Source: a virus (taxonomy: Duplodnaviria > Caudoviricetes). From it: a stretch of 64,000 nucleotides of DNA. Position numbers and translations under genes: made by a program. The notes below the pieces were generated by a model. The model was not told where the DNA came from. It did no database searches and worked only from the letters and a program-made list of their open reading frames with translations. The stretch lies in the IMG/VR virus record IMGVR_UViG_3300033463_000004, positions 198,695-262,694 of that record; one strand, given 5' to 3'. Positions 44,201-52,663 of this stretch are shown piece after piece (the first letter of the stretch is position 1; each line of letters starts with the position of its first letter).

Positions 44201-44286
44201 GGATATGTGTAGCTGAACAGGTGAAAGCACCGACTCAAGGGACGCCCTTGAGTCGGTGGTGCGGGTTCGACTCCCGTCACATATCT
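44201..44286 (+). ncRNA. tRNA-like RNA with 12-bp anticodon-arm hairpin
   Basis: acceptor, D and T arms intact; CCGACTCAAGGG-ACG-CCCTTGAGTCGG. Confidence 0.75.
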
Positions 44287-44815: not shown

Positions 44816-44954
44816 TTATCTGTATGCAAGAGGTCAAAAGCAGTCTACTTTCAGTAAGTAGAGAAGACTCTCCACCCAGAATACTCTGCAGGGTATTGGG
44901 TTAAAACTCGCAATCGCGAGGGGGAGTACGGGGGTTCGAATCCCCCCAGATAAT
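44816..44954 (+). ncRNA. tRNA-like RNA with ~70-nt branched variable-arm insertion
   Basis: TTATCTG/CAGATAA acceptor, GGGGG-TTCGAAT-CCCCC T arm. Confidence 0.7.
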
Positions 44955-44975
44955 GTTTGCTCAATTCTTATAGAT

Positions 44976-45056: not shown

Positions 45057-45645
45057 TCTTTTCGATATATCGTAATCACGGTCGACATTGGCGTTATGCA
45101 GATGGATGGCGAGAGGTACAAGGTAATCGTTGCAGTGCAAAAGGATAAGAATAATCAAACAAGATGCAATCCTAGTATCGGACGAGTACGACACCTTGTA
45201 TGTGTGATGGCGATAGTAAGAGGCGCCTGGTCGAAATTAGCCTATAAGCGACTATGTTAGTCACGGAAGACACCGTTGTCATTTTGCTTGTTTAGTGACG
45301 ATGGTGAGATCACCGTGCAGCGAAATGGATGATACGACCATCTCCCGAGTAGTGGCGAGCGAAAGGGATCAACAATAGCATCTGGGGCTTCTGGCCGAAC
45401 ACGGATGTGTGCGTTGATTAAAAAGCACCCTGTAAACGGGTATACACAGTTACAATAGTATATCGGAAAGATGAGACGAAGACTGTGAATTGTTTTAGAC
45501 CTCCTAACGGGCGTGGGACATACGGTGTCACCGAAACGATTTATGAGTCTAGGACTATTGATGAGTGGGAAGTACCGGGCACTAGCAAACCGGCATACCG
45601 GATATGGACATCCGGTGTACGTAATTGTCTGAGACACAATATACA
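45057..45645 (+). ncRNA. putative large structured ncRNA
   Basis: no credible ORF; long-range stem 45057-45069/45459-45471 and many hairpins. Confidence 0.55.
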
Positions 45646-45652
45646 ATAGTTT

Positions 45653-45726
45653 GGGGCTGAAATCTGGGTGGCACGGCGCCGTGCGCACGCTCGTCGTTGC
45701 AGTGGGTTCGAATCCCACACAGTCCT
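45653..45726 (+). pseudogene. degenerate tRNA-like element
   Basis: GGGCTG/CAGTCC acceptor and GTGGG-TTCGAAT-CCCAC T arm; no clear D or anticodon arm. Confidence 0.5.
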
Positions 45727-45729
45727 TCT

Positions 45730-45800
45730 GACTCGATAGCCAAGTGGTAAGGCATCCGGTTGCAACCCGGAGACCGGTGGTTCAAATCCATCTCGAGTCT
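45730..45800 (+). tRNA. tRNA-Cys(GCA)
   Basis: TCCGG-TT GCA AC-CCGGA. Confidence 0.92.
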
Positions 45801-45988
45801 TCATCGTCAAGATAAGTGTGTCAGGTGAATGGAGTGAGTGCCGTCAGGGTTATGAGCGGAACTTCCTTAGGAATCTCATAATGTTACGCGGTTCCGTTAG
45901 CTGCAGATAAACGGGTAGACTGCACTGATTTGTGGATGGTTAAACAATTCTGTACTGCCGCAGTGATGCAAACTGTTTTGACGATTAT

Positions 45989-46143
45989 GATCTGCTTAGT
46001 TCAGTTGGTCATGAACACACTCGAGGACGAGGTCGTCGGTTCAAGTCCGGCACATGGTATTAGGATCCAATACCATTGTTAGCGCAGATGGTAAGCGCGC
46101 GTTGAGTGAGTGAGGTCGGAGGTTCGAGTCCTTCAGCAGGTCT
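45989..46143 (+). ncRNA. double-tRNA-like RNA (tRNA body with permuted tRNA body in place of anticodon loop)
   Basis: two D arms, two T arms, two acceptor-like stems, no anticodon loop. Confidence 0.75.
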
Positions 46144-46150
46144 TTCAAAC

Positions 46151-46223
46151 GATTCATTAGCTCAGTAGGTAGAGCATCTCCCTTTTAAGGAGAGGGTCCA
46201 GGGTTCAAATCCCTGATGGATCA
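46151..46223 (+). tRNA. tRNA-Lys(TTT)
   Basis: TCTCC-CT TTT AA-GGAGA. Confidence 0.93.
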
Positions 46224-46626
46224 TCTAATGCAGAATCATGTTAGTTTAAATGGTGATAAAAAACGGTTCATGTTGACGGTACTGCAGGACCTGAATGAAT
46301 CATATGCGGATCGTTGAAAGAGTCGATGTAAACAATCGCATACATGATGAAGCATTATGACAGGAAAGCGCCCTAACGTTTTCCTGAGATACGATTTGTC
46401 GATCATAGTTCAAATAAAGAACACTCATATACCAGTATCCGGATGCTGATGTGTGAGGGATCCTACAGCTGCACAAGACATGTTGTATTCAGTTGGTGTT
46501 TATAGTAGACTGGTGCCCCGCTTTCGGCGGATCTGACCGATTACGGTGCAGGCCTCCGCATATATGGAGGAGTTGCTATGAACGGGTGATTGACAAATTG
46601 TGTCTAAATCTCTGTCAATTTTGTAT

Positions 46627-46708
46627 GCTGCTGTGGCGGAATTGGCAGACGCGTTGGATTTAGGTTCCAATGTCTTCGGGCATGCAGGTTCGATTCCTGT
46701 CAGCAGCA
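46627..46708 (+). tRNA. tRNA-Leu(TAG)
   Basis: TTGGA-TT TAG GT-TCCAA. Confidence 0.92.
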
Positions 46709-46713
46709 TTTAT

Positions 46714-46786
46714 TCCCGCTTAGCTCAGTCGGTAGAGCAAATGACTGTTAATCATTGGGTCGTAGGTTCAAGTCCTACAGCGGGAG
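46714..46786 (+). tRNA. tRNA-Asn(GTT)
   Basis: AATGA-CT GTT AA-TCATT. Confidence 0.93.
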
Positions 46787-46802: not shown

Positions 46803-46843
46803 GATGGGGCGCTTCGGCGCCCCTTATCATTCTTTTTTTTTTT
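46803..46843 (+). terminator. intrinsic terminator of tRNA cluster
   Basis: GGGGCGC-TTCG-GCGCCCC followed by T run. Confidence 0.85.
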
Positions 46844-48642: not shown

Positions 48643-48918
48643 TGAAGTCATCGATAGCGATACAGGGAGTAGTTCTGCGGAGTAAAGTGACGGCAAGGTG
48701 TGGTGTGGCATAATAACGTATGTCAATGTATTGTCAAGGTGCCGGAAAGCAAGGCTCCGTGGTGTTTTGTGACGCTTTGGTTGAGCATTAGTACAGTGCA
48801 ACAATGTGTTGTATCGGTCGAGTCAAGTCTTGTTCCGTGCAGTACTGTGGTGTTTAGTAAAGTAATGGTAAGGCACAGTATGGCGCTTCGTGACTCAGCA
48901 ACGTAACGGTTGTGTGTA
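48643..48918 (+). repeat. NGY-NN pentamer array B
   Basis: e.g. TGT AT CGG TCG AGT CA AGT CT TGT TC CGT GC AGT AC TGT GG TGT TT AGT AA AGT. Confidence 0.75.
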
Positions 48919-48943
48919 ATAAGGAGAGGACTGATCATGAGAA

Positions 48944-49408
48944 ATGAATAAGAAAACTTCGGTAGATGAAGTCTTATACTTTATCCACCATATTTTCGAC
49001 GGAAAAACTTGTGAAGAACGTAATGTCATTCACAAGTTTTTCGGATGTGGATATTGTTATTATTTCGCATCAATGTTGAAAGCAGCTTTCCTTCGCGGTC
49101 ACATTGCGTGGGCTGCACCGTATTCCCACTGTGTGTGGGTTGATGTTGATGGGACTCCGTACGATATCGAGGGAATATACGACGGCGAATATTCTTATTT
49201 GATTCCAATAGAATTTGCCGAAACTGTATGTGACAAATTCAAACATATATTTCGGCATAATTCTGAATATTCAGAATCATATATCGTATACGTTACACAA
49301 GAAGATATCCAACATGTTTGCCGCGCGTACTGCGCGGCGAATAATATCAAGTATCAAGACCAGTATGGGGATTGGTATAAATGGAAAGGAGATGTGACGA
49401 AATGGTGA
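48944..49408 (+). CDS. hypothetical protein, possible Cys-His-Asp papain-like fold
   Basis: GYCYYFA...SHCVW...YDIEG. Confidence 0.65.
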   Translation: MNKKTSVDEVLYFIHHIFDGKTCEERNVIHKFFGCGYCYYFASMLKAAFLRGHIAWAAPYSHCVWVDVDGTPYDIEGIYDGEYSYLIPIEFAETVCDKFKHIFRHNSEYSESYIVYVTQEDIQHVCRAYCAANNIKYQDQYGDWYKWKGDVTKW

Positions 49409-49908
49409 CTTTAGTAGTCGACGGGCACATCATAAGTGACGTCGAAAAATTCATTCGTCTGGCATTGACAGCCAGCGATCCAATGACCGATGATGCTATG
49501 CAATCCGTCGCATTGAATGCATTGAAAGAAATGCGGGCATTGGTCACTGTTCCTGATCGGAGCACACACAATGACATCATGTGGGACTCACCAGATGATA
49601 TTCACCGAGATATCTTCACGAATGTACTCGGAAACGCGGGTGTGTCGCCAGCTTTAACGAAGCTGGATAAAGTTGGTATCACAACCGAAGCACAGCTGAA
49701 GAATTTCATTATTGCCGCACATCGACCGGAAGGTTTCGGTGCAAAGACCATCGGTTTAATCGCCGAATATGTGTACATTCGTGGTCTGACATCAAGTCCT
49801 GAAAACATCGTGTCCAGGTTTTACAAACCTGGGTGGCATGAATATAATCTTGCCATGAATACGATCGCCGAAACCAAATGGCGGCGATGGAACACGATCA
49901 TTGACTAA
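49402..49908 (+). CDS. hypothetical protein
   Basis: ATG after AAGGAG. Confidence 0.65.
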   Translation: MVTLVVDGHIISDVEKFIRLALTASDPMTDDAMQSVALNALKEMRALVTVPDRSTHNDIMWDSPDDIHRDIFTNVLGNAGVSPALTKLDKVGITTEAQLKNFIIAAHRPEGFGAKTIGLIAEYVYIRGLTSSPENIVSRFYKPGWHEYNLAMNTIAETKWRRWNTIID

Positions 49909-49911
49909 ATA

Positions 49912-51278
49912 CTGTGTACAGGCAAGGTACTATACAGCAGAATTCCGTGCAGCTATGGCAAAATAGTGTATTGTAAGGTGAGGTGTGGTAATGCTTAGCT
50001 GTGGTATGGCAGTGCAAAGTTCTGTTCGGTATTGGTGGGGTTTAGTATCGTGGCGTCGTGTTTGGCAAAGCAAAGGTATTGTACGGTCATGGTAGGGTTG
50101 TGTTCGGTTCAGTTGTGTGTGGTACCGTTGTGTCATGGTGCTGTGCTGTTCGGTACGGTATCGTACTGTAGCGTGCCGTAGAGGTGTGGTAGAGCAATGT
50201 TCGGTAGCATGATGTTCTGTGATGGTCTGGTATTGTGAAGTATTGTGGTATAATGTGCAGTGATGGTTTAGTGTCGTTATGTAGAGTATCATTTAGTCAT
50301 GTAATGGTGACGTCAGGTATGGTATAGTTATGTCCTGTGGAGGCATGGTATGGTTATGTCCTGTGGAGGCATGGTATGGTTATGTCCTGTGGAGGTGTAG
50401 TATAGTCAATGTTACGCACCGTGGCGTACAGTCTGGTGTGGTCCAGTAATTGTCCCGTGCAGTAGGGTGAAGTTTGGTGAAGGTACTGTATTGTATAATA
50501 GGGTGCGGAATAGTGATGTACAGGTATTGTATCGTAAATGAATAGCAAAGCGGAGTGGTGTATTACTCAGTATCGCAAAGGTAAGGTGTCGTAAGATAAG
50601 GTGCTGTCTCGCAAAGGTGTGGTCACGTCTTGTGATATTCAGTAAAGCAATGCAAATGTAGAGCAAAGCTGATCGCCGTGTGATAGGGTAACGTAACGGT
50701 TCAGTGTTTGTCAAGTGACGCGGCATGACGTTGAGTGAAGTGTCGTAATTGTAAAGTGGCGCAAGATCAGGTACCGTTGTATCGTGTAAAGTATAGGTAT
50801 AATGAAGCGACGTCTTGTTTGGTTCCGTCAGGTAATTGTGAAGCCGCGTGACGTTTTGTGTTGTAAAGGTTCTGTCGTGTTTCGATTGTATTGTGAATGT
50901 ATGGTAACGTTCGATATTGTGCATTCATGCGTTGTCAAGGTAAAGCGGCGTACAGTAAGGTATAGCTTCGTATCGTTTCGTAATGGTGAGGCGAAGTTTG
51001 GTTTCGTCAAGTAAAGGTAAGGTACAGCTTCGTGTCGTTTCGTAATGGTGAGGCGAGGTTTGGTTTAGTCAAGTAAGTGTGAAGCCTGGTGTTGTGGAGT
51101 CGGGTCATGTTATGTCTTGTACTGTACAGTGAATGTATTGTTCCGCAATTGTGACGTAGCGTTTCGTGTCGTGACGTGAAGCTGAGTAAAGGTAATGTAC
51201 GATTTTGTCAAGTTTAGTCAAGTAAGTGCAAGGTTTAGAGCCGTGACGTGCGGTCCTGTAATGTCAAGGTATAGCTAT
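49912..51278 (+). repeat. NGY-NN pentamer array C (~1.37 kb), upstream of Cas7-like gene
   Basis: e.g. GGT GC TGT GC TGT TC GGT AC GGT AT CGT AC TGT AG CGT GC CGT; periodic 6-nt phase slips before GGY. Confidence 0.9.
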
Positions 51279-51303
51279 GGATTATATATGAAAATTTTTA
51301 TGA

Positions 51304-51322
51304 TTTTCATATATATATCATT
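51304..51322 (+). promoter_or_regulatory. putative phage promoter motif of Cas7-like gene
   Basis: TTTTCATATATATATCATT. Confidence 0.65.
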
Positions 51323-51407
51323 ATGGTGATCCGAAGGACAATTATACCTTCGGAAGTAAAGTTTATTTTAATTTTGTAAGGGCTTAGTCCCAGAAAGGAA
51401 GACCATT

Positions 51408-52133
51408 ATGGCAACTGAAACAACCGCAAAGAAAACATCCGCAAAAAAAGCTGCTTCTGCAGCACCCCGCATCGCATATTATTTATCTGCAAAGATTACA
51501 TTCATTTCACCGTTGTTGGCAACAAATGCCAATGATCCTCAGATTTATTCTGAGTATCTGGCTAGTCTCGCCAATGACGAGACCCGTGCTGCCGAAATCG
51601 AACGTCTCGGTCTTGCCGAGGTGGATGAGAAAGGCATGACTGTCTTTCTCCGTAATCCGGATAATCCGATGCAACCCCAGTTGAAGGGGTATACTTGGCT
51701 GGGCTTTTTGAAGTCCAGATCAAGAGCTCTGGCAAAGGTTGACGGCACCCAGATCAAGGGTATGTCGGCCTATATTAAGGAAATCGACGACAGAATCTTT
51801 GTGTCGCCAATTTTTATCAATCTGGATTTACCGGAAGGAGAAGCAATTGACACCCTTCAGAGACCGCTGAGAGCAGCTACCATGCAGGGTGATCGCGTTG
51901 CATTGGCAAAATCCGAAACTGTGCCGGAAGGTACGACTTGTGAAGTCACATTCCGTACGGAGACTCTGGACGGAATGAAACTCGTGATTGAGTGTCTGGA
52001 TTACGGAAAGATCCATGGCACTGGTCAATGGCGAAACGCCGGATATGGGCGTTTCACCTGGGAAAAAATTGACCAATGGAAAGAATACATCGACAAAGTC
52101 AAACTCGAGGAAGACGACTTCCCGATGAGATAA
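51408..52133 (+). CDS. stand-alone Cas7/Csm3-like RAMP protein
   Basis: KITFISPLL beta1; LKGYTWLGFLKS helix; thumb QRPLRA; SETVPEGT; G-rich loop LDYGKIHGTGQWRNAGYGRF. Confidence 0.8.
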   Translation: MATETTAKKTSAKKAASAAPRIAYYLSAKITFISPLLATNANDPQIYSEYLASLANDETRAAEIERLGLAEVDEKGMTVFLRNPDNPMQPQLKGYTWLGFLKSRSRALAKVDGTQIKGMSAYIKEIDDRIFVSPIFINLDLPEGEAIDTLQRPLRAATMQGDRVALAKSETVPEGTTCEVTFRTETLDGMKLVIECLDYGKIHGTGQWRNAGYGRFTWEKIDQWKEYIDKVKLEEDDFPMR

Positions 52134-52142
52134 CTTTGTCTG

Positions 52143-52188
52143 AATTTAACGGCGTCATGTGTAAAAAGCATGACGCCGTTAAATTTTT
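52143..52188 (+). terminator. 17-bp stem hairpin after Cas7-like gene
   Basis: AATTTAACGGCGTCATG-N9-CATGACGCCGTTAAATT. Confidence 0.65.
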
Positions 52189-52191
52189 CTA

Positions 52192-52317
52192 TGATGCGGT
52201 GGTACGGTAGCGTATGATTCTGCACTGCGCAGTAATGTAAATGCGAAGTGACGTATGGTCTAGTCTGGTGTTGTAAATGCATTGTTTTGAGGCGTTATGT
52301 TGTGTCTCGTAAAGTAT
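52192..52317 (+). repeat. NGY-NN pentamer array D
   Basis: TGC GA AGT GA CGT AT GGT CT AGT CT GGT GT TGT AA. Confidence 0.7.
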
Positions 52318-52622: not shown

Positions 52623-52663
52623 TCCATATAATTATTATTTGACGAGAATACTGTATAATATTT

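What the first reader, a model, noticed from the sequence alone, without database searches (positions are those of the whole stretch)
45989..46143. Double-headed tRNA: two tRNA bodies fused through their anticodon stems
The outer body has acceptor GATCTGCT/AGCAGGTC, D arm GTTC/GAAC, stem CACTC/GAGTG, AGGTC and T arm GGAGG-TTCGAGT-CCTTC. In place of the anticodon loop is a circularly permuted second body: AGGTC, T arm GTCGG-TTCAAGT-CCGGC, an acceptor closed as a hairpin (ACATGGTATT/AATACCATTGT), then TA and D arm GCGC/GCGC. The result has two elbows and no anticodon. I know of no described RNA with this architecture. It might be a bivalent decoy or scaffold.
Basis: seen in the sequence. Interest (0 to 1): 0.85.

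Follow-up and report, generated by a model that had tools for sequence, protein, structure and literature searches.

The report
Two-headed tRNA look-alike in jumbo phage
A cattle-gut giant phage carries, among its tRNA genes, a 155-base gene for an RNA shaped like two tRNAs joined where the codon-reading loop should be; the same design recurs in unrelated phages, cannot read codons, matched no RNA library or paper I searched, and most likely imitates tRNA shape to occupy host proteins.

Summary
Observation confirmed. 45989-46142 is a normal tRNA body whose anticodon loop is replaced by a circularly permuted second body (T arm, hairpin-closed acceptor, D arm). All four swapped helices pair; 0 of 200,000 shuffles match it. 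Unbranched contigs from two samples span it unchanged, so it is not a chimera. About 20 copies of the design occur in about ten mostly unrelated phage lineages, including cultured Xanthomonas phage RTH11. Eleven of them give compensatory changes in 31 of 41 pairs, and a model built without the window fits it end to end. Both heads keep the tRNA elbow bases. The inner head has YrlA topology, but there is no Ro60 gene, no Ro-binding motif and no YrlA-level score. Splicing cannot restore a canonical tRNA. Three near-complete relatives lack it, so it is an accessory. Best reading, inferred and untested: a non-decoding tRNA mimic that occupies host tRNA-binding defence proteins (about 0.4); the outer end has a His-type acceptor and may be charged. 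Expression is unshown. The scan found this design before in other phages.

The parts
45989..46142 (+). Whole double-headed tRNA-like RNA gene (G-1 to discriminator C73); no encoded CCA
   Evidence: (held-out model matches 45989-46145, all pairs canonical)
45989..45996 (+). Outer acceptor 5' strand with G-1; pairs with 46135-46142
   Evidence: pair probabilities 0.82-1.0
45997..46017 (+). U8-A9, outer D arm (4 bp, 10-nt loop with G18-G19; position 21 is U, not A), base 26
46018..46029 (+). 5' strand of the central helix: outer anticodon stem (46018-46022), short linker, 3' strand of the inner anticodon stem (46026-46029)
   Evidence: alternative register
46030..46051 (+). Inner head: 5-nt variable region and T arm with canonical T loop
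46052..46079 (+). Inner acceptor stem closed as a hairpin (10 bp, one bulge, 7-nt loop; no CCA after position 73)
46080..46099 (+). Inner head: U8-A9, D arm (4 bp, canonical loop), G26
46100..46112 (+). 3' strand of the central helix: inner anticodon stem 5' strand (46100-46103), linker, outer anticodon stem 3' strand (46108-46112)
46113..46142 (+). Outer variable region, T arm, acceptor 3' strand and discriminator C73
45730..45800 (+). Upstream tRNA-Cys(GCA), same cluster
46151..46223 (+). tRNA-Lys(UUU), starting 8 nt after the element; implies co-transcription (inferred)
46806..46823 (+). Terminator-like hairpin after tRNA-Leu and tRNA-Asn; likely end of the operon

Best explanation
A phage non-coding RNA that mimics tRNA shape twice and cannot decode. 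SHOWN (sequence level): two complete tRNA cores share one anticodon helix; the outer has free ends, the inner is circularly permuted and capped. INFERRED: (1) it is transcribed with the Cys-Lys-Leu-Asn tRNA operon; (2) host RNase P, RNase Z and CCA-adding enzyme mature the outer end, as for the phage's other tRNAs that lack an encoded CCA; (3) both heads fold into L shapes and present D/T-loop elbows; (4) with no anticodon loop it cannot pair with mRNA, and there is no loop for an anticodon nuclease to cut; (5) it therefore acts as a competitive sink for host proteins that recognise the tRNA body or acceptor end, most plausibly tRNA-attacking anti-phage effectors, protecting true tRNAs. I put the fold at about 0.9 and the decoy function at about 0.4.
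For: Fold: 94.7% of cells paired and 31 of 41 pairs compensatory in 11 homologs, every swapped helix covarying; RNAalifold recovers seven of the eight helices unaided; a held-out model fits the window copy end to end; 11 tertiary-core features are complete in 27 of 30 heads. What is conserved is shape: acceptor sequence, discriminator (C, A, G, U), inner hairpin length and linker all vary. No shared neighbouring gene was evident on reading the flanking ORFs, and no Ro60, so the partner is likely a host protein. Turnover typical of conflict genes: absent from three relatives 92-100% complete, absent or under 80% alike in two strains about 96% identical downstream, present as paralog rows in other phages. 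Phage tRNA clusters are established counter-defence loci (PMC10264068, PMC11464382, PMC11555353, PMC12445682).
Against: No binding or phenotype data. In the published cases I read, phage tRNAs rescue by replacing the cut tRNA, not by decoying: changing the anticodon abolished rescue from retron-Eco7 (PMC11555353), and P2-OLD reads a motif in the anticodon stem (PMC12445682), so an RNA without an anticodon may not bind such nucleases. Homologs were picked by a detector that demands swapped pairing, which inflates the covariation counts. Patchy presence also fits a neutral relic. The variable linker weakens a two-site avidity argument.
Confidence: 0.4

Rival explanations
1. YrlA-like adaptor. 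The inner head binds an effector such as PNPase or another elbow reader, and the outer tRNA body replaces the Ro60-binding module, tethering a second tRNA-binding protein to build a new complex.
For: The inner head aligns to positions 23-86 of the YrlA model, the effector domain. Homolog heads score 29-41 bits on it. One homolog's head matches by BLAST an unannotated YrlA-like RNA behind the RNA-binding-protein gene of mycobacteriophage Snenia. YrlA acceptor and anticodon stems also vary in length (10.1101/312249).
Against: No Ro60 in any of 14 phage records, no Ro-binding motif in the window copy, no shared neighbouring protein evident. A dedicated complex would be expected to fix the linker geometry.
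Confidence: 0.2
2. Chargeable mimic. The outer end is aminoacylated by a synthetase that needs no anticodon (HisRS via G-1:C73 here, AlaRS via G3:U70 in L031) and serves as an aminoacyl donor or as a sink for EF-Tu or for toxins that attack charged tRNA.
For: The window, L051 and L053 copies have G-1:C73; L031 copies have G3:U70, A73 and an encoded CCA. C73 occurs in 3-4 of about 10 lineages against 4.7% of ordinary tRNAs (binomial p 0.0008-0.007). No tRNA-His was found in this phage. The identity rules are from established knowledge.
Against: Identity differs between lineages. The L001/L004/L006 copies end in CCU while three of four neighbouring true tRNAs in L006 encode CCA, which looks like avoidance of charging. 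C73 could be inherited from a tRNA-His ancestor. This reading can coexist with the decoy reading.
Confidence: 0.17
3. Neutral relic. A tandem tRNA duplication folded in swapped form, lost its anticodon loops and is decaying.
For: Identical tandem tRNAs can pair either way (L091 scores 24 both ways). Close relatives lack it. The window copy has a non-canonical base 21 and a bulge, and is no closer in sequence to other double-heads than to the best ordinary tRNA pairs.
Against: The two halves differ in every variable stem, yet all four swapped helices and both elbows are intact, which needs many compensatory changes. The same end state recurs in unrelated phages.
Confidence: 0.12
4. Precursor. 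The inner body is an intron, or the RNA is cut and re-ligated into one or two working tRNAs, as for permuted tRNA genes.
For: ARAGORN with introns calls tRNA-Ser(UGA) with a 78-nt intron. Lak phage tRNAs carry introns with nested tRNA-like bodies (PMC6784885). M. smegmatis YrlA is opened by RNase P (PMC4201824).
Against: The only splice giving U33 and purine 37 yields G32, a short variable arm and C73, which SerRS should not accept, and the phage already has tRNA-Ser(UGA) at 52663. Only 2 of 15 members can form a Y32-U33-R37 loop. The window's central strands total 25 nt where two anticodon arms need 34. No RtcB in the genome.
Confidence: 0.07
5. Assembly chimera of two tRNA genes.
For: tRNA clusters are repeat-rich and can mis-assemble.
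Against: One unbranched contig in the probable source run (45655-46662, 0 differences, depth 43) and one in a second sample and study (45600-46750, no difference in the element) span it. The design recurs in an isolated phage.
Confidence: 0.01

Closest known systems
YrlA, tRNA-like Y RNA of bacteria and mycobacteriophages (Rfam RF02553; PMC4201824; 10.1101/312249)
   Same: The inner head has the same permuted order (variable region, T arm, closed acceptor, D arm), the same tertiary bases, and an anticodon-like stem that continues into the rest of the RNA.
   Different: The stem continues into a second, complete tRNA body with free ends, not a Ro60-binding module. No Ro60 gene, no Ro motif; 15.6 bits against a cut-off of 69.
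Lak megaphage tRNAs with introns holding a nested tRNA-like body (PMC6784885, Table S6)
   Same: A second tRNA-like body sits in the anticodon loop of a phage tRNA gene.
   Different: In Lak the nested body is in normal orientation on a linker, the host tRNA keeps its anticodon, and intron-less alleles exist. Here it is permuted, stacked on the anticodon stem, and no canonical loop can be restored.
Permuted and split tRNA genes of red algae and archaea (own knowledge)
   Same: The 3' half precedes the 5' half in the inner body.
   Different: Those are spliced at bulge-helix-bulge sites into decoding tRNAs. Here the anticodon nucleotides are missing.
tmRNA tRNA-like domain and viral tRNA-like structures (own knowledge)
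   Same: Acceptor and T arm mimicry without a working anticodon loop; chargeable through acceptor identity (Ala, His).
   Different: No tag reading frame, full D arms are kept, two elbows. ARAGORN and Rfam give no tmRNA call.

Membership tests
YrlA Y RNA | Permuted tRNA-like domain (T arm, closed acceptor, D arm) | tested here: met
   one search aligns 46027-46103 to model positions 23-86
YrlA Y RNA | Reaches the Rfam RF02553 gathering score (69 bits) | tested here: not met
   15.6 bits for the window; at most 41 bits in homologs
YrlA Y RNA | Encoded next to a Ro60/TROVE gene | tested here: not met
   0 of 14 phage records, four of them carriers 98-100% complete; controls rang
YrlA Y RNA | Ro60-binding stem with the GNCGAAN(0-1)G motif on the 5' strand | tested here: not met
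   absent in the window; two homologs have a match, on the 3' side only
YrlA Y RNA | Binds Ro60 in vivo (a host Ro60 is possible) | not testable with these tools
   host unknown; needs a pull-down
Decoding tRNA | Acceptor, D and T arms with conserved tertiary bases | tested here: met
   outer head lacks only A21, inner head complete
Decoding tRNA | 5-bp anticodon stem closed by a 7-nt loop with U33 and purine 37 | tested here: not met
   no loop; not called by ARAGORN without introns or by Rfam at gathering score
Intron-containing tRNA (incl. Lak type) | Excision restores a canonical anticodon loop that fits the body | tested here: not met
   only G32 Ser(UGA) on a class I body with C73; 2 of 15 members give any Y32-U33-R37 loop
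Intron-containing tRNA (incl. Lak type) | Intron-less allele in relatives | tested here: inconclusive
   relatives lack the whole element or hold a different RNA at the slot
tmRNA | G3:U70 acceptor, tag reading frame, pseudoknots | tested here: not met
   no tmRNA call; outer pair 3:70 is C-G

The most novel reading that the evidence does not exclude
A widespread, uncatalogued class of phage RNAs in which a tRNA body is a chassis and the anticodon loop is swapped for payloads (a hairpin, a branched domain, or a whole permuted tRNA head). The two-headed form would be an RNA-only counter-defence or adaptor that engages two tRNA-binding proteins at once, possibly while histidylated. Counter-defence by a non-decoding tRNA decoy appears in none of the papers I read, where phage tRNAs act by replacement.
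Probability: 0.35. Interest if true: 0.88.

Novelty: new variant of a known kind. Interest (0 to 1): 0.72.

Why it matters
Standard tRNA finders miss these genes or mislabel them as intron-containing tRNAs, so a conserved RNA family has stayed unannotated in phage tRNA clusters. If they are decoys, phage tRNA clusters fight tRNA-targeting immunity in a second way that needs no decoding, which bears on the old question of why phages carry tRNA genes. The fold is also a natural two-elbow scaffold that can show which enzymes read the elbow alone. A cultured carrier, Xanthomonas phage RTH11 (OQ790161.1, about 75847-75999), makes it testable now.

Tried and rejected
An exact 24-mer from the element found nothing in viral contigs. 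BLAST against cultured phages gave only ordinary tRNA matches. A window-specific pattern found nothing in bacterial genomes. The single metagenome scan gave 18 loci and no new double-head. Model R1 with default filters lost the window copy, and ordinary tandem tRNAs reach about 94 bits, so the score alone does not define the family. Pairwise similarity could not separate common descent from convergence. Expression: no RNA holder listed, which is no evidence either way. No convincing + strand sigma-70 promoter. RtcB absent; CCA-adding enzyme in 1 of 14 records; the T4 RNA ligase search was uninformative because no control rang. A kink-turn in the central loop does not fit the consensus on inspection. 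The 50-codon ORF at 45930-46082 was not pursued and is probably incidental. Paper searches for this architecture found no description; most subscription journals are not covered.

Full report
SETTING. The window is the last 64 kb of a 262.7-kb virus record, 98% complete. Its UvsX-like recombinase is closest to those of Bacillus phages AR9 and PBS1, staphylococcal jumbo phages and phiR1-37 at about 26% identity. The best sequencing runs are bovine gut metagenomes. The host is unknown; a Firmicute is my guess. The element lies in a tRNA cluster between tRNA-Cys (45730-45800) and tRNA-Lys (46151-46223), 8 nt before the latter, with a terminator-like hairpin at 46806. Rfam at gathering score and ARAGORN without introns miss it. 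ARAGORN with introns calls tRNA-Ser(UGA) with a 78-nt intron.

OBSERVATION. The sequence reads as two tandem tRNA-like units whose anticodon arms are 12 and 13 nt instead of 17, and whose halves pair crosswise. The 5' acceptor of unit 1 pairs with the 3' acceptor of unit 2 (7 bp plus G-1:C73). The 3' acceptor of unit 1 pairs with the 5' acceptor of unit 2 as a hairpin. The two anticodon stems are swapped in the same way (5 and 4 bp). The minimum-energy fold shows it, apart from an alternative register in the central helix. The tRNA-like register costs about 3 kcal/mol more without tertiary contacts (-46.8 against -49.7). The global z-score is weak (-1.5), but the specific test is strong: swapped score 22.5 of 24; 0 of 200,000 shuffles reach it; 319 ordinary tandem tRNA pairs average 15.1 +/- 2.4, and the two that reach 22.5 also pair with themselves. 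An unbranched contig in the probable source run and another in a different sample and study cover the element with no difference inside it.

FAMILY. Degenerate patterns for a shortened anticodon arm next to a second T arm, which do not ask for swapped pairing, were run on viral contigs, metagenomes and bacterial genomes. A detector then picked units whose crosswise pairing exceeds self pairing. This gave about 20 distinct copies: rows of paralogs in L001/L004/L006/L012 and L031, copies in L051, L053, L119, L130, a Mu-like phage (L087), a contig with phage-like genes in a bacterial assembly (L248), and the cultured Xanthomonas phage RTH11, where the cluster is unannotated. Most carriers are 230-320 kb. 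None of the seven tested matched the window's recombinase. Eleven homologs aligned without the window give 94.7% paired cells, 31 of 41 pairs with two-sided changes, all 7 pairs in each acceptor, and 0 of 500 shuffles as high. RNAalifold finds seven of the eight helices unaided. These counts are inflated by selection through the detector. A covariance model from those eleven fits 45989-46145 end to end at 95.8 bits with no broken pair. The score alone is not diagnostic, because ordinary tRNA pairs reach about 94 bits. In 15 members, 27 of 30 heads keep all 11 tertiary-core features; the window's outer head lacks only A21. Acceptor identity, discriminator, inner hairpin length (5-12 bp) and linker length vary. 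Whether the window copy descends from the others or arose separately is open. The inner T stem resembles that of two other lineages (5 of 17 against 9 of 305), a weak hint of kinship.

DISTRIBUTION AMONG KIN. Three relatives at 84-93% recombinase identity and 92-100% complete have the same tRNA cluster but no double-head. In one (G015) the slot before tRNA-Lys holds a different anticodon-less tRNA body with a branched insert. Two gut strains about 96% identical downstream of 46150 skip this stretch or are under 80% alike there. The window itself has further anticodon-less tRNA-like genes at 44203, 44816 and 45653 that have counterparts in relatives. The double-head therefore looks like one form of a wider set: a tRNA chassis with a variable payload in place of the anticodon loop.

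MECHANISM. Decoding is excluded by the missing loop. Splicing is unlikely: the one excision that gives U33 and purine 37 makes a Ser(UGA) loop with G32 on a short-arm body with C73, the phage already has a true tRNA-Ser(UGA), and only 2 of 15 members can form a canonical loop. What selection keeps is two elbows and one free acceptor end. Most of the phage's true tRNAs lack an encoded CCA, so host maturation of the outer end is the expected route (inference). G-1:C73 is the HisRS identity pair (established knowledge), and C73 is enriched among lineages (p 0.0008-0.007), so charging is possible. But one lineage ends in CCU beside CCA-ending tRNAs, so charging is not the common function. No shared neighbouring gene was evident and there is no Ro60, which points to a host partner. 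Location in tRNA clusters, paralog rows and fast turnover fit a conflict role. I favour a decoy for tRNA-attacking defence proteins at about 0.4. The main objection is that the known cases work by replacement and depend on the anticodon arm (PMC11555353; PMC12445682). Rivals are a YrlA-like adaptor (0.2), a charged mimic (0.17), a relic (0.12) and a precursor (0.07). No step from transcription onward is shown.

COMPARISON. The inner head works like the YrlA effector domain: same permuted order, alignment to model positions 23-86, and similar variability of stems. It is not a YrlA: score 15.6 against 69, no Ro60, no Ro motif. Lak phage tRNA introns are the published case of a tRNA-like body inside a phage tRNA (PMC6784885), but there the nested body is in normal orientation and the host tRNA keeps its anticodon. 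Bacterial genomes hold related chains of permuted modules without a closed outer acceptor, for example Sphingobacterium L221. I found no paper describing the two-headed form. Earlier agents of this scan reported the same design in other phages. I reproduced it independently here and treat their notes as leads only. This window adds an AR9-like gut lineage, a His-type acceptor and evidence of gain or loss among close kin.

VERDICT. Real, conserved by design rather than by sequence, undescribed in the sources searched, function inferred. New variant of the tRNA-mimic kind; interest 0.72.

Noticed in passing
window 44203-44285 +: tRNA body whose anticodon arm is a 12-bp hairpin with a 3-nt loop. 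A counterpart with a shorter arm is in relative G016 (L290 about 800-875).
   Followed up: partly
window 44816-44955 +: tRNA-like RNA with a branched, very long variable region; conserved in relatives G001 and G016.
   Followed up: partly
window 45653-45726 +: Atypical tRNA-like RNA with a weak tRNA-Sec match (25 bits) and a tmRNA-like 5' end; counterparts in G001 and G016.
   Followed up: partly
window 45119-45754 and 46230-46620 +: Long non-coding stretches inside the tRNA operon. The first is 68% identical in G001; the second is about 96% identical in two gut strains. Candidates for further structured RNAs.
   Followed up: no
L289:2684-2819 + (G015): At the slot before tRNA-Lys, an anticodon-less tRNA body with a branched insert instead of a second head.
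   Followed up: partly
L282:1364-1495 and 1508-1660 + (Xanthomonas phage RTH11, OQ790161.1): Unannotated tRNA cluster with one full double-head and one reduced form whose inner head lacks a proper D arm.
   Followed up: partly
L149, L155, L157, L050, L057, L006:6070-6272: Many single-headed tRNA-like genes with intact acceptor, D and T arms but a short or expanded non-decoding anticodon arm.
   Followed up: no
L221:4610-4748 - and L257, L278: Chains of T-arm and D-arm modules with a YrlA-like inner head but no closed outer acceptor, in bacterial genomes (L221 is Sphingobacterium).
   Followed up: no
L031:1846-2379 -: Three double-heads in a row share a bulged G at the same place in the outer acceptor and an encoded CCA; this genome also encodes a CCA-adding-type enzyme.
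   Followed up: no
window 48643-52317: Pentamer-periodic non-coding arrays around a 241-aa gene (51408-52133), noted by the first stage as Cas7-like; the protein has no PHROG match.
   Followed up: no
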